Assembly (NCBI GenBank): GCA_035493035.1
Contig: DATJIS010000011.1
Location: forward strand, 11,470-75,469
Direction: 5' to 3'
DNA: 64,000 nucleotides
From: Casimicrobiaceae bacterium
GTDB lineage: Bacteria; Pseudomonadota; Gammaproteobacteria; Burkholderiales; Casimicrobiaceae
Part shown: one piece after another, positions 28,460-35,099 of the stretch
Position numbering within the stretch: the stretch's first letter is position 1
Layout of the letters: every line of letters begins with the position of its first letter
Notes under the pieces: generated by a model
What the model was told of the DNA's origin: nothing
Seen by the model: the letters and a program-made list of their open reading frames with translations, nothing else
The model's database searches: none
Made by a program: the position numbers and the translations under genes

Positions 28460-30295
28460 CTAGGCGCGACGAAACCGATAGATCGCGAGCTCGCCGCGCG
28501 CATTGGGCGCGAAGTTCACCGGCCGCGCGCGCGACAGCACGACACGATCGACGATGTCGAGGCCGCGCGCGGCGAGGAACGCGTCGAAGTCGGCCACGGT
28601 GCAAAGATGGATGTTCGGCGTGTCGTACCACTGGTACGGCAGCGACTTGGACACGGGCATGCGCCCGCGCAGAATCTGCAATCGGTGCGACCAGTGGCCG
28701 AAGTTCGGAAACGTGATGATCGCCTCGCGCCCGACGCGCAGCATCTCGGCGACGATCTCCTCGATATGTCGCATCGCCTGCAGCGTCTGCGACAGGATCA
28801 CGCAATCGAAGGCGCCGTCGTCGAAGCCCGCGAGACCGCGCTCGAGATCGCTCTGGATCACGTCCACGCCGTTGCGCAGACTGGCGAGCAGGCCGGCTTC
28901 GGCGATCTCGATGCCGTAGCCCGTCGCGCCGCGCGTGCGGCGCAGGTGCGCGAGGAGCGTGCCGTCGCCGCAGCCGAGGTCGAGCACCCGCGCGCCGTGC
29001 CCGATCCAGCCCGCGATGACCGCGTAATCGGCGCGGAGCCCTTCGTCGGCTGGCTGCGGTCCCTCGGAAACCCGGGGCACGGCATGGAGGGTCGTGACGG
29101 GCGTGCGCGGCTCCGGCGGTGACGCCCGCTGCTGCGCGATGCGCTCGAAGTAGCTGCGCACCACCGCGTGGTACTGCGGGTTGTCGAGGAGGAACGCGTC
29201 GTGGCCGTGCGGCGCGACGATCTCGGCGTACGAGACCTCGTGACGGCGGCGCACGAGCGCGCGCACGATCTCGCGCGAGCGCGCCACCGGGAACCGCCAA
29301 TCGGTGGTGAATCCCACCACGAGAAATTGCGAGCGCGCGGGCGCCAGCGCCTGCGCGAGATCGCCGCCGGTCTTCGACGCCGGATCGAAGTAGTCGAGCG
29401 CCTTGGTGATGCGCAGGTACGTGTTCGCGTCGTAGTAGTCCGCGAACTTCTCGCCCTGGTAGCGCAGGTACGACTCGATCTGGAACTCGGGCGCGAAGGA
29501 GAAGCGAAGCCCTTCGCGCAGCTGCCGTCCGAAGCGCGTCTCCATCTGCTCGTCGGACAGGTACGTGATGTGGCCGATCATGCGCGCCACGCGAAGCCCG
29601 CGGCGCGGCTTCGTGCCGTGCGCGTAGAAATGACCGTCGAAGAACTCGGGGTCGGTCATGATGGCCTGGCGTGCGACCTCGTTGAACGCGATGTTCTCCG
29701 CCGAAAGGTTGGGCGCCGCCGCGATCACGAGCGCGTGCCGGATCCGCTCGGGAAAGCGCACCGCCCAGGCGAGCGCCTGCATGCCGCCCAGGCTTCCGCC
29801 CATCACGGCAGCCCATTGCCGGATCCCGAGCCGATCCGCGAGCCGGGCCTGCGCATCGACCCAGTCCTCGACGGTCACGATGGGAAAGTCGCTGCCCCAC
29901 GGCTCTCCGGTGTCGGGATTGATGGACTGCGGCCCCGTGGAGCCGAAGCAGCTTCCGATGTTGTTGACGCCGACGACGTGGAAGCGGTTGGTATCGAGCG
30001 GCTTGCCCGGCCCCACCATGTTGTCCCACCAGCCGACGTTGTCCGGCTCCCCCGCGTACACGCCGGCCACGTGATGCGACGCGTTGAGCGCATGGCAGAT
30101 CAGCACCGCATTGCTGGCGTCCGCGTTGAGCGTGCCGTAGGACTCGTACGCCACGTCGTACGCGGGCAGCGCGCGCCCGCAGGCGAGCGGAAGCGGCTCG
30201 GCGAAGTGCGCGATGCGCGGCTCGACCACGCCGACCGACGTCTCGGGTGCGTGCGCGGTGTCGGCACCGCCGGTGGTAGCTGCAAACGACGCCAT
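28460..30295 (-). CDS. metX-metW: Fused homoserine O-acyltransferase MetX / methionine biosynthesis protein MetW
   Basis: A single 611-aa ORF. Residues 1 to ~387 are MetX (alpha/beta hydrolase, [10 protein letters not shown] nucleophile elbow, GHDAFLLD). A ~32-aa Pro-rich linker follows. The last 192 aa are MetW ([32 protein letters not shown]...). There is no stop codon or frame change between the two parts. Confidence 0.85.
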
Positions 30296-30491: not shown

Positions 30492-30669
30492 CTCCGCTCG
30501 CGATATCGCTCGACGGAGCGCCTCCGCCGGCCCCGCAAGGCCGCTTGCCGACAAACGGCCGCGTTTCGCATTGCCCCGGCCCATGACACTGGAATAATAT
30601 GCCGGCGTCATGGCGCGATCCGTGAGGCGTCGCTGCCCTGCCGAACAACAACGACTCCTGGAGTGGTCC

Positions 30670-32202
30670 ATGGCAGTGAGGCGGCTCGTCTTCGGCGTCG
30701 TTTGCATGCTCGCTGCCGCCTTCGCGGCCACCGCGGCGCACGCGCAAAACGCGACGCGCGGATCGCAGATCTATGGCCAGTCGCCCTGGGGGTGCGCCGA
30801 CTGCCATGGCAGCAACCCGCGCAACGATCCCGAGAGCGGGCAACCGTCCGGCGGCGTGAAGTCGGGAACGGTGTGGCAGAACATCCTCCTCGGCATCAAC
30901 GGTCCGATCGATGGCCACACGGACATGACGGACCTGCTGAAGCCGTTCTACGACCAGCAGCTCATCAGCGACGCCGATCTGCAGGACATCTCGGCCTATC
31001 TGCAGCAGGTGTTCAACGGCACGGGCGGCGGCGGCGGCGGTGGAAATCCCGGAACGATCTCGGCCGCGGCGTCGCTCGGCTTCGGAACCGTCAACACCGG
31101 GGCGAGCAACCTGCAAAGCCTCACCGTCACGGTGAGCTCGGCCGCCGTGACCTTCGCTTCGGTGAGCATCTCCGGCGCGCACTCCGGCGACTTCAGCGTC
31201 TCGAGCAATGGCTGCAACGGCGCCGTGAACCCGGGGTCCTGCCAGATCGGGGTGTCCTTCCAGCCGTCGGCCGCGGGCACCCGCAACGCCACGCTGACCA
31301 TCGCGAGCAACGCCACGAATGGCGCGACCAAGACCGTGGCACTCAATGGAACAGGCAACGTCGTGTCGACCGGCACCGGGCAGCTCAGCGCGCCGGCGAC
31401 CGTCACGCTTCCCGATACGGCGGTGGGCGCACAGAGCGCGGCGTCGACCGTGACGGTCAGGAACGTCGGCTCGGCGGCCGTCAACGTCGCGAGCGTCACG
31501 TCGAGCAGCGCGGAGTTCCTCTTGACCTCGAACGCGTGCAGCGGGGCAACCGTGCAACCCGGCGCGGCGTGCCAGTTCAGCGTCGCCTTCAGGCCGTCGA
31601 CCGCCGGCGCGCGCAACGCAACGCTGTCGATCTCGAGCAGCGCCACCGGCAGTCCGCAGGCCGTCACCGCGCTGGGCAACGGAACCGCTACCGGCGGTGG
31701 CGGCACCAAGGTGCTCGCCGTCGAGTATTACAACGCCGGCTTCGATCACTACTTCATCACCGCGATTCCCGACGAGATCACCAAGCTCGACAACGGCACG
31801 TTCGTCGGCTGGCAGCGCACGGGATTCACCTTCAACGTCTATGCGGCGACGAATCCGCCGGCGGGCAGCTCGACGGTGCACCGGTTCTTCAGCACCAGCT
31901 TCGCGCCCAAGAGCTCGCATTTCTACACGGCGAATCCGGCGGAGTTCAACACCGTGCTCGCGAATCCGAACTGGCAATACGAGGGCGACGTGTTCAACGT
32001 GCCGATGCCGAGCGCGGACGGCTCGTGTCCCGCGGGGACGCTGCCGGTCTATCGCCTGTACAACAACGGCCAGGGCGGCGCACCCAACCACCGCTTCACG
32101 ACGGACCTCACGACGCGCGACGGCATGCTGAGCCGCCCGCCCGACAAGGCGTGGGTTGCCGAGGGCGCGGGAATCGGCGTGGGAATGTGCGCCCCGCAGT
32201 GA
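30670..32202 (+). CDS. Secreted multidomain protein: c-type cytochrome domain, Gly linker, two Ig-like (choice-of-anchor-D/HYDIN-like) repeats, DUF5648-like C-terminal domain
   Basis: GGAG RBS upstream of the ATG at 30670. Signal peptide MAVRRLVFGVVCMLAAAFAATAAHA. CADCH heme-binding motif at 30793..30807. GGGGGGG linker. Two ~100-aa internal repeats (...SGDFSVSSNGCNGAVNPGSCQIGVSFQPSAAGTRNATLTI... / ...SAEFLLTSNACSGATVQPGAACQFSVAFRPSTAGARNATLSI...). The C-terminus is paralogous to CDS 3788..4885. Confidence 0.8.
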   Translation: MAVRRLVFGVVCMLAAAFAATAAHAQNATRGSQIYGQSPWGCADCHGSNPRNDPESGQPSGGVKSGTVWQNILLGINGPIDGHTDMTDLLKPFYDQQLISDADLQDISAYLQQVFNGTGGGGGGGNPGTISAAASLGFGTVNTGASNLQSLTVTVSSAAVTFASVSISGAHSGDFSVSSNGCNGAVNPGSCQIGVSFQPSAAGTRNATLTIASNATNGATKTVALNGTGNVVSTGTGQLSAPATVTLPDTAVGAQSAASTVTVRNVGSAAVNVASVTSSSAEFLLTSNACSGATVQPGAACQFSVAFRPSTAGARNATLSISSSATGSPQAVTALGNGTATGGGGTKVLAVEYYNAGFDHYFITAIPDEITKLDNGTFVGWQRTGFTFNVYAATNPPAGSSTVHRFFSTSFAPKSSHFYTANPAEFNTVLANPNWQYEGDVFNVPMPSADGSCPAGTLPVYRLYNNGQGGAPNHRFTTDLTTRDGMLSRPPDKAWVAEGAGIGVGMCAPQ

Positions 32203-32206
32203 CGGA

Positions 32207-33112
32207 TCAGGACGCCTGAGGCGTTTCGTCGCTCACGATTCCGCCGTCGCGATCGACCAGCAGGAAGCGATAGCGCTGCTCGCGCAGGAACGTGGCCGCA
32301 TCCGGCCGCAGCATCGCGATGGTCGCGAGGCTGCCCGCGACGATGCACAGCGGGGCCACGACGCTCACCGATTGCCAGCGATCCATCGGCCAGCCGGTGC
32401 GCGGATCGAGGATGTGGCAATAGCGCCGGCCCTGGATCTCGAAGTAGCGCTCGTAATCGCCGCTCGTGGCGACGGCCGCGTCGCGCAGCTCGACCGCGCC
32501 GATCACGCCACCCGGTTTGCGCGGATGAACGATGCCGACGCGCCACGGTGCACCGGTCGGCTGGCTGCCGAGCGCGCGCACGTCGCCGGCGAGGTTCACG
32601 AGCGCGTTGGCGACGCCCGCATCGGCGAGCACGGTCGCGGCCCGATCCGCCGCGTATTCCTTGCCGATCCCGCCGAAGTCGATCTCCATGCCGGCCTCGG
32701 GCAGGCGTATGGACGTTTCGCTCCATTCGACGCGCGCCCAGCCGATGAGCCGGCGCAGCGCGTCGACCTCGCTTGCCTGCGGCAACCGCGGCGGATCGCG
32801 TCGAAAATCCCAGGCGCGCCTCAGCACACCCGACGTGACGTCGAACGCGGCGTCGCTCAGCCGATGGCACTCGTCGGCGTAGCGCAGCAGCGCGGCCGTT
32901 TCCGTGTCGATGGGCACCGCGGCGCGGCCGGCTGCGCGATTGATCCTGCTCGTGATCGCGTCGTCGCGATAGCGCGAGTACTTCGCCTCGATGCGCTGCA
33001 CCTCGGCGGTCGCGGCGCGCGCAGCAGCGGCGGCCGTCGACGCGTCGGCGGCATCGATGGTGAGCTCGTGCTCCGCCGCCATCGCGCGGAACGTGAAGCG
33101 GAACAGCGCCAC
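32207..33112 (-). CDS. apbE: FAD:protein FMN transferase (ApbE family)
   Basis: The C-terminal part of ORF 32207..34225. Contains FDVTSG, IDFGGIGKEYAADRA, VNLAGDV, ATSGDYERYF and HILDPRTGWP. I chose the GTG at 33112, 2 nt after the upstream stop. The ATG at 33082 is an alternative start. No signal peptide is evident. Confidence 0.85.
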   Translation of the reverse strand: MALFRFTFRAMAAEHELTIDAADASTAAAAARAATAEVQRIEAKYSRYRDDAITSRINRAAGRAAVPIDTETAALLRYADECHRLSDAAFDVTSGVLRRAWDFRRDPPRLPQASEVDALRRLIGWARVEWSETSIRLPEAGMEIDFGGIGKEYAADRAATVLADAGVANALVNLAGDVRALGSQPTGAPWRVGIVHPRKPGGVIGAVELRDAAVATSGDYERYFEIQGRRYCHILDPRTGWPMDRWQSVSVVAPLCIVAGSLATIAMLRPDAATFLREQRYRFLLVDRDGGIVSDETPQAS

Positions 33113-33114
33113 CG

Positions 33115-34251
33115 CTAGAAGGTTTTCTGGACGCCTGCCTCGATCCAGCGTGCGGAGAAATCGAGCAGCCCTTCGCTGCCCGCGCCGAACAGATGCCAGC
33201 TCGACCTCTGGCGATAGAAGCTTACCGCGACGTCCGCGCTCCAGCCATCGGCGAACTGCTTGTCGAGCCGCAGGCTCGGCGTGAACGCGCCGAACGCCGA
33301 CAGGCGCGTGTCGGCGGTGTACGGCTGGCCCGGCCGCAATCCGTTGCCGAGCGGCGGGCCGTAGAAGAAGAACGCGTTGTCCTGCGTGATGTAGCGCAGC
33401 CCCGGCGTCAGAGTGAATCCCTGCGTCAACGGCTGCGCCCATTCGACGTCGAGCGTGTGCGAATCGGCGTGCCAGGAATCGTTGATGTACCGGTAGGACA
33501 GACGCAGCGTGGCGTCGAACTTCGGCACGTACTGGTTGTAGCGGGTGAGCCACGCGAACACGTTGCGCGTGTCGGGACGGCGGTCGAGCGGCTTGTACGG
33601 ATCGTTGTAGTAGCCGCGTCCGTCGGAGTACGTGAGGTTGGACTCGATGATCGCGCCCGCGTTGAGCACCTGCGTGACGCCGACCAGGAAGTCGTAGGTC
33701 TCGCGGTGCTTGCCTTCGGCGGCGCCGTTGGTCGGGTTGACGTCGTCGTGCGCGCCGCCGACGCCGAACGCCCACGTGCGGTTCTTGTCCGCCGTCCAGG
33801 TCCGGAGGTCCATGGAAAGCGCGCGCGACAGGTAGTCGCGCTCGACGGAATACGCGCCGCCGACGCCGATCGCGAAGCGGTCGTAGTACTTCGTGACCTT
33901 GAGGTCGCCGGCCTTGCGGTAATCGGTCACGCCGAGGCCCGAGGCGCCCGACAAGGTGTTGAAGTACAGCACCGACGCGCCCGACATGGCGTCGTAGACG
34001 AGCGAGCCCTCGACCGACAGCGTGTCGGTGATGGGCTTCAGCACGTAGAGCGACGGGCTTCGAACCGTCATGCGGTCCGCGCCGGGCTGCCAATCGCGGT
34101 AGTCGAAATAGCGCAGCGCGACGACCCCCTGGTCCGGCGCCGTCTGCGCGTGCGCCGCGGCGGGGAGGATTCCGGGCAACGCGAGCGCCGCGGCGAGCAG
34201 CGCGTTGCCGCGTCGCTCGCCGCAACGCTCGTCAGTTGCAGCCACAACCAC
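33115..34251 (-). CDS. DUF3570-like secreted, probable outer-membrane beta-barrel protein
   Basis: 378 aa, GTG start. Signal peptide ...RRGNALLAAALALPGILPAAAHA. Alternating beta-strand-like composition with a C-terminal aromatic residue (…GVQKTF). Contains DAMSGAS and TLSGAS motifs. Confidence 0.75.
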   Translation of the reverse strand: MVVAATDERCGERRGNALLAAALALPGILPAAAHAQTAPDQGVVALRYFDYRDWQPGADRMTVRSPSLYVLKPITDTLSVEGSLVYDAMSGASVLYFNTLSGASGLGVTDYRKAGDLKVTKYYDRFAIGVGGAYSVERDYLSRALSMDLRTWTADKNRTWAFGVGGAHDDVNPTNGAAEGKHRETYDFLVGVTQVLNAGAIIESNLTYSDGRGYYNDPYKPLDRRPDTRNVFAWLTRYNQYVPKFDATLRLSYRYINDSWHADSHTLDVEWAQPLTQGFTLTPGLRYITQDNAFFFYGPPLGNGLRPGQPYTADTRLSAFGAFTPSLRLDKQFADGWSADVAVSFYRQRSSWHLFGAGSEGLLDFSARWIEAGVQKTF

Positions 34252-34450
34252 CTCCGCCGACGCCGTAACCGCCGCCGGCGGCTTCCTTGCTCTGGTAGAT
34301 GTGCTGCGTCGCCTTGGCCGTCAACGGATCGCGATCGAGCTGCATCTGGGGCTTGGCGAGGTCGCCCTTTTCCCAAGGCTGCGGCGGCGCGAACGACGCG
34401 CAGCCCGCGCACGCAAGGACGACGAGGAGGACGCAGGCGGACCGGCGCAT
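34232..34450 (-). CDS. DUF4266 lipoprotein
   Basis: 72 aa. Lipobox VLACAGC. Contains PWEKGDLAKPQM...HIYQSKEAAGGGYGVGGGGCGCN, the DUF4266 pattern as I recall it, including the terminal GGCGCN. It overlaps the next gene by 20 nt. Confidence 0.75.
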   Translation of the reverse strand: MRRSACVLLVVLACAGCASFAPPQPWEKGDLAKPQMQLDRDPLTAKATQHIYQSKEAAGGGYGVGGGGCGCN

Positions 34451-34461
34451 CGACGCTCGCC

Positions 34462-34968
34462 CTACCGCGCCGCGAGCAGTTCGCGAATGCGGCCCTCGAC
34501 GGCCGCCTTGTCTTCGTCGCGGAAGCCCTGCTCCACCATCACCACGCGGCCGCTGCGATCGACGAGGTACGAGCTCGGCATGCCTTTCACCGCGTACGCC
34601 GACGGCGTCGCGCCGGCCGCATCGTAGACGACGGTGAAGCGCGCCGGCGTGGCGGCGAGGAACCGCTGCGCATCCTCGGCCTTCTTGTCGACGTTGACCG
34701 CGACGATGGTGAAGCCGTCGCGCCCGTAGCGGGCGGCGAGCTCGTTCATCCAGGGAAAGGACCGCTTGCACGGCCCGCACCACGACGCCCAAAAATCCAC
34801 GTACACGACCTGCCCGCGCAGGCGCTCGAGCGCAATGGTTTCGCCTTGCGAGGTCGCGAGCGAGAACGGCGGCGCAGCGTCTCCGATGCCGACGGCAACC
34901 GCCGAACCGGTGTGAAGCATCGCGGCCAGCGCGACGCTCGCCCAGCGAAGGAGTACGGATCGTTTCAT
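34462..34968 (-). CDS. TlpA-like periplasmic thiol:disulfide oxidoreductase
   Basis: The last 168 aa of ORF 34462..36519. Signal peptide MKRSVLLRWASVALAAML. Active site FWASWCGPCK (CxxC). Redoxin fold. Confidence 0.85.
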   Translation of the reverse strand: MKRSVLLRWASVALAAMLHTGSAVAVGIGDAAPPFSLATSQGETIALERLRGQVVYVDFWASWCGPCKRSFPWMNELAARYGRDGFTIVAVNVDKKAEDAQRFLAATPARFTVVYDAAGATPSAYAVKGMPSSYLVDRSGRVVMVEQGFRDEDKAAVEGRIRELLAAR

Positions 34969-35099
34969 GACATTGGCATTATTGCAGGCTCGCGGACGGC
35001 GACTCAACACCGGCCGACGACTGGCAGACGCACGGCCGTACGCGGTTGCGCAAACAGCAGTGTCGCGCGGCCATTCCGGACGCTTCGTCCCGGCCGCGC

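What the first reader, a model, noticed from the sequence alone, without database searches (positions are those of the whole stretch)
33940..33993. Two ApbE-type flavinylation-like motifs (D-A-M-S-G-A-S and T-L-S-G-A-S) in the DUF3570 protein next to apbE
The translation reads ...SLVYDAMSGASVLYFNTLSGASGLGV... Known ApbE substrates (NqrB/C, RnfD/G and others) carry FMN on the last Thr/Ser of a D-x-x-(S/T)-G-A-(T/S) motif. The first occurrence here matches that pattern exactly, with Ser as the acceptor. A second SGAS lies 11 residues later. The gene ends 2 nt before apbE. This makes the DUF3570 protein a direct candidate flavoprotein client. A flavinylated barrel-like envelope protein would be unusual.
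Basis: partly seen in the sequence, partly recalled or inferred. Interest (0 to 1): 0.7.

Follow-up and report, generated by a model that had tools for sequence, protein, structure and literature searches.

The report
Known flavin-tagged DUF3570 barrel protein
The two SGAS motifs are real and conserved, but they lie in a protein family (DUF3570) already shown by experiment in 2021 to receive covalent flavin from the neighbouring ApbE enzyme, so this is a rediscovery with a few unexplained side details.

Summary
The minus-strand ORF 33115-34251 is a DUF3570 protein (Pfam E 4e-59). It carries DAMSGAS (S93) and LSGAS (S104), and its stop lies 2 nt before an apbE gene.

Méheust et al. 2021 (eLife, PMC8238504) showed that Chlorobium luteolum DUF3570 is flavinylated by its cognate ApbE at two [S/T]GA[S/T] sites. 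They also described this exact gene cluster: thioredoxin-like, DUF4266, DUF3570, ApbE, with or without DsbD.

Three nuances came out of this work:
- **Only S93 matches a validated site.** It aligns with C. luteolum S122 and its motif is nearly invariant (93/98 diverse homologues). S104 lies at a lineage-variable second site (strict motif in 49/98). The other validated site, S78, sits in an insertion that this protein lacks.
- **The protein is a predicted outer-membrane barrel.** AlphaFold predicts 16 strands (pLDDT 87), with all flavin sites on the long-loop side.
- **The cluster ApbE has no signal peptide.** This holds here, in about 49 related loci and in C. luteolum, although its substrate is Sec-exported. 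The paper does not discuss this compartment mismatch.

Novelty is low. The side puzzle is moderately interesting.

The parts
33115..34251 (-). DUF3570 gene (378 aa from the GTG start). It is the predicted ApbE substrate and a predicted 16-stranded outer-membrane beta-barrel that ends ...GVQKTF.
   Evidence: Pfam PF12094 E 4.4e-59. AF2 model pLDDT 87.2, pTM 0.84, about 16 strands. Foldseek hits are only OM barrels.
34147..34251 (-). Predicted Sec signal peptide of DUF3570 (about aa 1-35, ...LLAAALALPGILPAAAHA|Q).
   Evidence: Read from the sequence. pLDDT is below 50 for aa 1-35. The h-region and AxA are conserved in the A1 consensus. The best 12-aa KD window is 2.39. No dedicated signal-peptide predictor was available.
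33973..33993 (-). Flavinylation site B: D87-A-M-S-G-A-S93, a full ApbE motif with S93 as acceptor.
   Evidence: It aligns with the validated S122 motif of C. luteolum P0236. The [ST]GA[ST] motif is kept in 93/98 representatives and D87 in 92/99 alignment rows. D87, G91 and A92 are invariant in A1.
33940..33960 (-). Flavinylation site C: N98-T-L-S-G-A-S104, a probable second acceptor (S104) in loop L2.
   Evidence: The second motif is kept in 117/120 close homologues and 89/120 Chlorobi-like homologues, but in only 49/98 diverse representatives. C. luteolum has GLSAME here. pLDDT is 62-75.
32207..33112 (-). apbE gene (301 aa, FAD:protein FMN transferase). It has no signal peptide or lipobox.
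   Evidence: Pfam PF02424 E 2.3e-79. PDB ApbE/FmnB hits reach E 1e-37, with the TSGDYERY and HILDP blocks kept. NCBIfam ApbE profile position 40 aligns to aa 9.
34232..34450 (-). DUF4266 gene (72 aa): a small predicted lipoprotein with a Gly-rich tail that ends CGCN.
   Evidence: Pfam PF14086 E 2e-23. Start and sequence. The same GGGCGCN end is seen in C. luteolum, T. tepidum and Methyloprofundus.
34462..34968 (-). TlpA/ResA-like periplasmic thioredoxin (168 aa, WCGPC active site, signal peptide).
   Evidence: Pfam Redoxin E 1.3e-24 and AhpC-TSA. NCBIfam ResA/TlpA-like hits are all below their curated cut-offs. ATG start.
34978..35007 (-). Promoter-like site (TTGAGT-18-AATAAT) just upstream of the thioredoxin ATG; a possible operon promoter.
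   Evidence: Consensus scan only. One site was found against 0.3 expected.

Best explanation
The ORF is an ordinary orthologue of the DUF3570 family, a published class of ApbE substrates. It sits in the canonical four-gene module: TlpA-like thioredoxin, DUF4266 CXC lipoprotein, DUF3570, ApbE.

ApbE uses FAD and Mg2+ to attach FMN by a phosphoester bond to S93. This is close to certain, because S93 is homologous to a validated site. It probably also modifies S104, which is inferred from conservation only.

The mature protein is predicted to be a 16-stranded outer-membrane beta-barrel. The flavin sites lie at the end of strand 3 and in loop L2, on the long-loop side, which is extracellular by the usual OMP topology rule.

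The module is thought to relay electrons from DsbD (encoded elsewhere in this genome), through the thioredoxin and the DUF4266 CXC motif, to the flavins and on to an unknown acceptor.

The cluster ApbE has no export signal and ApbE recognises a short linear motif. Flavinylation therefore most likely happens on the unfolded precursor in the cytoplasm, before Sec export. This last step is inference.
For: - **Family and neighbours:** Pfam assignments of all four genes.
- **Published experiment and cluster description:** PMC8238504.
- **Conserved gene order:** thioredoxin, DUF4266, DUF3570, ApbE in nearly all of 51 genome loci, in C. luteolum, and in T. tepidum and Methyloprofundus.
- **Site B:** S93 aligns to the validated S122. 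The motif is present in 93/98 representatives.
- **Site C:** present in 117/120 close and 89/120 Chlorobi-like homologues.
- **Chance:** P = 0.002 or less.
- **Barrel:** AF2 pLDDT 87, 16 strands, short turns alternating with long loops. PDB neighbours are all OM barrels. The C. luteolum model puts S78 in loop L1 and S122 at the end of strand 3, on the same side.
- **ApbE is intact:** TSGDYERY and HILDP blocks kept.
- **ApbE has no signal peptide:** here and in 49 loci; 22 of these have 25 or fewer open codons before the first conserved strand.
- **Linear motif:** a 7-residue motif suffices for ApbE (PMC12052999).
- **Published substrate:** flavinylated although most of it was recovered from the insoluble pellet.
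Against: - There is no experiment on this protein.
- S104 has N rather than D at -6. Its site is lost in about half of diverse homologues, including the only tested one.
- The window protein has V94 where 92/94 homologues have Pro after the acceptor.
- No DsbD lies in the 64 kb window.
- The closest relative (L001, 88% identity) has no apbE next to DUF3570.
- I know of no precedent for a Sec/BAM substrate that carries a covalent flavin added in the cytoplasm. Known cytosolic ApbEs serve cytosolic targets.
- Barrel orientation and the lumen-facing position of S93 rest on a model and a weak hydrophobicity alternation. I could not inspect model coordinates.
Confidence: 0.85

Rival explanations
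1. Only S93 is flavinylated in this protein. The second SGAS (S104) is a conserved loop element that ApbE does not modify.
For: Site C lacks the Asp at -6. The strict motif is absent in 49/98 diverse homologues, which then carry a single motif. It has never been tested, because C. luteolum has GLSAME at this position. It lies in the least confident part of the model.
Against: LSGAS is kept in 117/120 close and 89/120 Chlorobi-like homologues. In the Chlorobi-like set, proteins that lack site C often carry a replacement motif in loop L1 (16 A+B, 0 A+B+C), which suggests selection for two flavins. An Asp-to-Ala change at -6 has only minor effects in another substrate (PMC12052999).
Confidence: 0.25
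2. Flavinylation happens in the periplasm, not the cytoplasm. Either the cluster ApbE reaches the periplasm by a non-classical route, or a second, secreted ApbE encoded elsewhere in the genome does the work in vivo.
For: Nearly all characterised ApbEs that act on exported proteins are periplasmic lipoproteins, and cytosolic S. enterica ApbE could not complement (PMC12052999). Only 64 kb of this genome is visible, so a second apbE cannot be excluded. L001 has no adjacent apbE.
Against: The signal-less ApbE is conserved next to DUF3570 across Beta- and Gammaproteobacteria and Chlorobi. The C. luteolum cluster ApbE is sufficient in the E. coli cytoplasm. The modified residues are predicted to lie on the far, extracellular side of the folded barrel, out of reach of a periplasmic enzyme after folding.
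Confidence: 0.35
3. The SGAS motifs are chance or purely structural features of an Ala/Gly/Ser-rich protein, and the protein carries no flavin.
For: A, G and S are abundant in this GC-rich genome's proteins. P(at least one motif) by shuffling is 0.07.
Against: Two motifs within 15 residues have P = 0.0002. D87, G91 and A92 are invariant across about 40%-identical clades. There is direct experimental flavinylation of a homologue at the aligned serine. An apbE gene is adjacent.
Confidence: 0.03

Closest known systems
Chlorobium (Pelodictyon) luteolum DSM 273 DUF3570 (ABB24424.1) with cognate ApbE (ABB24423.1), Méheust et al. 2021, eLife 10:e66878
   Same: Same Pfam family and same gene order (thioredoxin, DUF4266, DUF3570, ApbE). 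39% identity. Same predicted 16-strand barrel. Window S93 aligns to the validated S122. The ApbE also lacks a signal peptide.
   Different: The C. luteolum second site (S78) lies in a 30-residue insertion between strands 1 and 2 that the window protein lacks. The window's second site (S104, loop L2) is GLSAME in C. luteolum. The C. luteolum cluster includes DsbD; the window has none.
FMN_bind-domain ApbE substrates (NqrC, NqrB, RnfG, RnfD, PplA, NosR, PceC)
   Same: Same enzyme family and same D-x-x-[S/T]-G-A-[S/T] acceptor motif, with FMN phosphoester-linked to the last Ser/Thr (PMC12052999).
   Different: DUF3570 has no FMN_bind (PF04205) domain. It is a predicted outer-membrane beta-barrel, not a periplasmic alpha/beta domain or inner-membrane subunit. 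Its acceptor is Ser rather than the preferred Thr. Its ApbE is signal-less, whereas those substrates use periplasmic lipoprotein ApbEs.
DUF2271, the other ApbE substrate family found in the same study
   Same: It was discovered by the same route: an orphan apbE next to a DUF with a conserved [S/T]GA[S/T] motif.
   Different: It has a single motif, a different fold and different partners (PepSY-like proteins, iron uptake). It is not homologous to DUF3570.
Porin-cytochrome conduits (MtrCAB type); analogy from general knowledge only
   Same: The concept is the same: an outer-membrane beta-barrel that houses or carries redox cofactors to pass electrons across the outer membrane.
   Different: Mtr uses multihaem cytochromes threaded through a 26-strand barrel. 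Here the cofactor would be FMN bonded covalently to the barrel itself. There is no homology, and the function of DUF3570 is untested.
Cytosolic ApbE of Klebsiella pneumoniae (fumarate reductase maturation)
   Same: It is an ApbE without a signal peptide that acts in the cytoplasm (PMC12052999).
   Different: Its substrate is a soluble cytoplasmic enzyme. Here the substrate carries a Sec signal peptide and is a predicted outer-membrane protein.

Membership tests
DUF3570 flavinylation substrates (PF12094; Méheust 2021) | Significant match to Pfam PF12094 | tested here: met
   E 4.4e-59, 200.8 bits against a cut-off of 25.
DUF3570 flavinylation substrates (PF12094; Méheust 2021) | [S/T]GA[S/T] motif at the position of the validated C. 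luteolum S122 site | tested here: met
   DAMSGAS (S93) aligns with DAVSGAS (S122). The motif is present in 93/98 representatives.
DUF3570 flavinylation substrates (PF12094; Méheust 2021) | A second [S/T]GA[S/T] motif | tested here: met
   LSGAS is at residues 100-104. This B+C architecture is the commonest one (117/120, 89/120 and 46 of about 100).
DUF3570 flavinylation substrates (PF12094; Méheust 2021) | The second motif is positionally equivalent to the other validated site (C. luteolum S78) | tested here: not met
   S78 lies in an insertion between strands 1 and 2 that is absent from the window protein. Window S104 aligns to GLSAME.
DUF3570 flavinylation substrates (PF12094; Méheust 2021) | Adjacent cognate apbE, with thioredoxin-like and DUF4266 genes in the cluster | tested here: met
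   All four genes are contiguous on the minus strand. The same order is found in nearly all related loci.
DUF3570 flavinylation substrates (PF12094; Méheust 2021) | DsbD co-localised (DsbD subclass; optional, since 316 published clusters lack it) | tested here: not met
   tblastn with C. luteolum DsbD finds only the thioredoxin gene in the 64 kb window.
DUF3570 flavinylation substrates (PF12094; Méheust 2021) | Covalent FMN demonstrated on the protein | not testable with these tools
   This needs co-expression, UV-fluorescent SDS-PAGE and mass spectrometry.
ApbE FAD:protein FMN transferase (PF02424) | ApbE domain with conserved Mg/FAD and catalytic blocks | tested here: met
   Pfam E 2.3e-79. 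PDB ApbE/FmnB hits reach E 1e-37, with TSGDYERY and HILDP aligned.
ApbE FAD:protein FMN transferase (PF02424) | N-terminal signal peptide or lipobox, typical of ApbEs that serve exported substrates | tested here: not met
   The domain starts at about aa 3. E. coli-type profile position 40 aligns to aa 9. The same is seen in 49 loci.
FMN_bind-domain ApbE substrates (PF04205) | Presence of an FMN_bind domain | tested here: not met
   PF12094 is the only Pfam hit at E <= 0.01.
Outer-membrane beta-barrel proteins (BAM substrates) | Signal peptide, even-stranded antiparallel barrel with alternating short turns and long loops, and a C-terminal aromatic residue | tested here: met
   AF2 gives 16 strands, turns of 2-5 residues and loops up to 29 residues. 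Foldseek gives FadL, OmpG, PelB and BcsC at E 1e-9 to 1e-10. The protein ends ...QKTF. Localisation itself was not tested.

The most novel reading that the evidence does not exclude
DUF3570 would be an outer-membrane beta-barrel that carries one or two covalently bound FMNs at its extracellular-side mouth. A cytoplasmic, signal-less ApbE would install them on the unfolded precursor, so that a flavin-bearing polypeptide passes through SecYEG and BAM. The barrel would then act as a flavin-based electron conduit across the outer membrane, fed from the periplasm by a thiol relay (DsbD, TlpA-like thioredoxin, then the Gly-rich CGCN tail of the DUF4266 lipoprotein). In the library searched no paper describes DUF3570 as a barrel or as an outer-membrane protein. 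The source paper never mentions a cytosolic ApbE.
Probability: 0.35. Interest if true: 0.65.

Novelty: already known. Interest (0 to 1): 0.27.

Why it matters
The finding as written does not change anything. The DUF3570/ApbE relationship, the two-motif logic and this exact gene cluster were published in 2021. This locus is one more orthologue, from an uncultured Casimicrobiaceae-like betaproteobacterium.

The loose ends are more useful:
- The tested protein and the common architecture differ in where the second flavin sits, so site C remains unvalidated.
- The substrate is predicted to be an outer-membrane barrel with flavin sites on the outer side.
- Its dedicated flavin transferase has no export signal in any lineage examined.

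If cytoplasmic flavinylation before export is real, it would be an unusual way to mature a redox cofactor protein. It would also point to a flavin-based alternative to porin-cytochrome electron conduits.

Tried and rejected
- **DsbD in the window:** tblastn with C. luteolum DsbD found none. The window therefore belongs to the published class of clusters without a co-localised DsbD.
- **eLife supplements:** I searched the held files for ABB24423, ABB24424 and PF12094, hoping to see the authors' signal-peptide calls. There were no hits in the held text.
- **Mutant residue numbers:** I searched the paper for S78 and S122. They are not in the text, so I inferred the mutated residues from the fact that P0236 has exactly two [ST]GA[ST] motifs.
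- **NCBIfam:** no model exists for DUF3570 or DUF4266.
- **Foldseek against PDB:** it gave only generic outer-membrane barrels with TM 0.4-0.5 and no specific family.
- **Tat export:** I considered it because the window signal peptide has 'ERRGN'. I rejected it as a general route because the Chlorobi homologues have no RR.
- **Longer ApbE with a signal peptide:** I considered an ApbE that starts upstream and overlaps DUF3570. I rejected this because 22/49 loci have an in-frame stop within 25 codons of the first conserved strand. Of the loci with more than 30 open codons, only two (L010, L050) have a strongly hydrophobic 12-residue window, and both lie in frames more than 300 codons long that overlap the DUF3570 gene.
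- **Model geometry:** I could not obtain coordinates, so lumen versus lipid facing of S93 rests on a weak hydrophobicity alternation.
- **Complex prediction:** a DUF4266-DUF3570 complex could not be submitted under the tool's input rules.

Full report
**1. The observation**

The minus-strand ORF 33115..34251 encodes 378 aa from a GTG start. Window 33940-33993 on that strand translates to DAMSGASVLYFNTLSGAS. SGAS occupies residues 90-93 and 101-104, so the acceptor serines are S93 and S104 as stated.

The protein matches Pfam DUF3570 (PF12094) at E 4.4e-59. Its TAG stop (33115-33117) is followed by two bases and then a GTG at 33112. That GTG opens a 301-aa ORF matching Pfam ApbE at E 2.3e-79.

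Upstream on the same strand are two more genes:
- a 72-aa DUF4266 lipoprotein (34232..34450) that ends GGGGCGCN;
- a 168-aa TlpA/ResA-like thioredoxin (34462..34968) with a WCGPC active site.

Shuffling the protein gives P = 0.002 for two or more [ST]GA[ST] motifs and P = 0.0002 for two within 15 residues. One caveat applies: the second site has Asn, not Asp, at position -6.

**2. It is already known**

A full-text search found Méheust et al. 2021 (eLife 10:e66878, PMC8238504). The paper's abstract names DUF2271 and DUF3570 as two domains of unknown function that are flavinylated by ApbE. The paper reports the following:
- two conserved [S/T]GA[S/T] motifs in 228 ApbE-associated DUF3570 proteins;
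- flavinylation of Chlorobium luteolum DUF3570 (ABB24424.1) when co-expressed with its cognate ApbE;
- loss of the signal only when both serines are changed to alanine.

It also describes the gene cluster ApbE + DUF3570 + thioredoxin-like + DUF4266. DsbD is present in 227 such clusters, and 316 further clusters lack a co-localised DsbD. The authors propose a hybrid thiol/flavin electron-transfer system of unknown function.

The window has no DsbD, so it belongs to the second class. Apart from that paper and its preprint, only two other papers in the held library mention DUF3570, PF12094 or DUF4266, and both do so in passing. The 2025 ApbE review does not mention DUF3570.

**3. Relatives**

The closest proteins are metagenomic 'hypothetical proteins' of up to 92% identity.

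A genome scan returned 51 loci. Most are Casimicrobiaceae, Burkholderiales or other betaproteobacterial MAGs, and the best is 88% identical. Nearly all keep the order thioredoxin, DUF4266, DUF3570, ApbE.

I recovered the experimentally tested protein itself (P0236, Pelodictyon/Chlorobium luteolum, on the 2,364,842-bp genome). Its locus reads thioredoxin, DUF4266, DUF3570, ApbE, DsbD. Gammaproteobacterial examples (Thermochromatium tepidum, Methyloprofundus) show the same four genes.

**4. Which of the two sites is validated**

C. luteolum DUF3570 has exactly two [ST]GA[ST] motifs, ending at S78 and S122. An alignment of 97 full-length cluster representatives (50%-identity clusters), plus the window protein and C. 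luteolum, shows three things:
- Window D87-S93 aligns with C. luteolum D116-S122.
- Window S104 aligns with a non-motif stretch (GLSAME).
- C. luteolum S78 lies in an insertion of about 30 residues that the window protein lacks.

I call the three positions site A (the insertion), site B (S93/S122) and site C (S104).

Site B is close to invariant. The strict motif is present in 93/98 proteins, Asp at -6 in 92/99 alignment rows and Pro after the acceptor in 94/98. The window is unusual in having Val at that last position.

Site C is lineage-variable. The strict motif is present in 49/98 proteins, or 60/98 if relaxed. About half of the family carries a single motif.

In the Chlorobi-like set, 89 proteins have B+C, 16 have A+B, 15 have B only and none has A+B+C. 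Sites A and C therefore look like alternative homes for a second flavin.

The window has the common B+C architecture. The only published experiment was done on an A+B protein. Flavinylation of S93 therefore rests on homology to a proven site. Flavinylation of S104 rests on conservation alone.

The review states that the motif is D-x-x-[S/T]-G-A-[S/T], that seven residues suffice, and that Asp-to-Ala has minor effects. Asn98 therefore does not exclude S104.

**5. Structure**

AlphaFold2 with a 94-sequence alignment gives a confident model (mean pLDDT 87.2, pTM 0.84). It has about 16 antiparallel strands. Turns of 2-5 residues alternate with loops of up to 29 residues.

Foldseek against the PDB returns only outer-membrane barrels (FadL, OmpG, PelB, BcsC, Occ porins, CymA, TonB-dependent receptor barrels). 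E-values are 1e-9 to 1e-10 and TM-scores are 0.4-0.5. This indicates the generic fold rather than a specific family.

The protein has a Sec-type signal peptide (…AAAHA|Q) and ends in Phe.

By the standard OMP topology rule (termini and short turns periplasmic, long loops outside), S93 is at the outer end of strand 3 and S104 is in loop L2. A model of the C. luteolum protein (pLDDT 84.4) puts S78 in a disordered loop L1 and S122 at the end of strand 3, on the same side.

Residue alternation suggests that D87 and S93 face the lumen, along with invariant R112 and Y122 and nearly invariant D116 on the next strand. That signal is weak, and I could not inspect coordinates.

The eLife paper contains no occurrence of 'barrel'. 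It does note that most of the C. luteolum protein was in the insoluble pellet and was purified in 6 M guanidine. That fits an outer-membrane protein expressed in the cytoplasm.

**6. An unexplained compartment mismatch**

The ApbE here begins VALFRFTFRAMAAE…, which is directly at the first conserved strand. Position 40 of the E. coli-type ApbE profile aligns to residue 9.

The same holds in every related locus examined, including the C. luteolum enzyme used in the experiment (MDIFRFGFTAMAG…, with a stop one codon upstream) and the gammaproteobacterial ones. In 22 of 49 loci, 25 or fewer open codons precede the conserved AM[GAS]. That leaves no room for a signal peptide.

The enzyme looks intact, with the TSGDYERY and HILDP blocks kept.

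By contrast, the thioredoxin, DUF4266 and DUF3570 all have export signals. The review says most ApbEs are secreted lipoproteins and that the known cytosolic ones serve cytosolic targets.

The simplest reading is that the unfolded DUF3570 precursor is flavinylated in the cytoplasm and exported with FMN attached. This is inference. From memory rather than from a tool result, adhesins glycosylated in the cytoplasm (AIDA-I/Aah, HMW1/HMW1C) are a loose precedent for modification before Sec export.

The rival is that ApbE, or a second ApbE, acts in the periplasm. This cannot be excluded from 64 kb of sequence.

**7. Verdict**

The finding is already published, and this locus is an ordinary orthologue.

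The residual interest lies in three points: the unvalidated site C, the predicted outer-membrane barrel with outward-side flavin sites, and the family-wide signal-less ApbE.

Noticed in passing
window 32207-33112 (-); also L002-L056 and L052 7288-8208: The ApbE encoded next to DUF3570 has no signal peptide or lipobox. This holds in the window, in about 49 related loci from Beta- and Gammaproteobacteria and Chlorobi, and in the C. luteolum enzyme used in the published experiment. Its substrate is Sec-exported and is a predicted outer-membrane barrel.
   Followed up: partly
L001 7101-7180 (Casimicrobiaceae SMAG_U3758): The closest genomic relative (88% identical DUF3570, same flanking synteny) has no apbE after DUF3570. 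Only 79 nt separate its stop from the convergent cytochrome-c/ASH/DUF5648 gene, so apbE was lost there or moved elsewhere.
   Followed up: partly
P0121-P0240 (Chlorobi-like DUF3570 set); L052 6001-7254: The second flavinylation motif sits either in loop L2 (89 proteins) or in an insertion in loop L1 (16 proteins, including the experimentally tested C. luteolum protein), but never in both. A further 15 proteins have only the core site.
   Followed up: partly
window 33970-33972 (codon V94): The residue after the acceptor Ser93 is Val in this protein (and in P0001), whereas 92 of 94 aligned homologues have Pro. The effect on ApbE recognition is unknown.
   Followed up: no
window 30610-32202 (+): A 530-aa secreted protein lies convergent to apbE. 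It combines a cytochrome c domain, two ASH/Ig-like domains and a DUF5648 domain. It is conserved at the same position in L001. A functional link to the flavin module is not established.
   Followed up: no
window 28460-30295 (-): This is a 611-aa ORF. The same gene lies at the same place in L001. From reading the translation only (no domain search was run), it looks like a fusion of homoserine O-acetyltransferase (MetX) with MetW.
   Followed up: no
window 34232-34251 (-): The DUF3570 GTG start overlaps the last 20 nt of the DUF4266 gene, inside the codons for its conserved CGCN tail. This suggests translational coupling.
   Followed up: no
L056 6001-7134 (P0386 locus): This is an orphan DUF3570 gene in an AT-rich genome. 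It has both SGAS motifs, but no thioredoxin or ApbE gene was called within 6 kb, and a six-frame read of the roughly 1.1 kb upstream gap showed no DUF4266. Its neighbours are a CHASE-GGDEF-EAL protein and ribonucleotide reductase.
   Followed up: no
L004 7104-7692 and L005 7062-7709: In two Casimicrobiaceae-like loci, about 590-650 nt separate DUF3570 from apbE, against 2-130 nt in most other loci. This suggests an inserted small gene or element.
   Followed up: no
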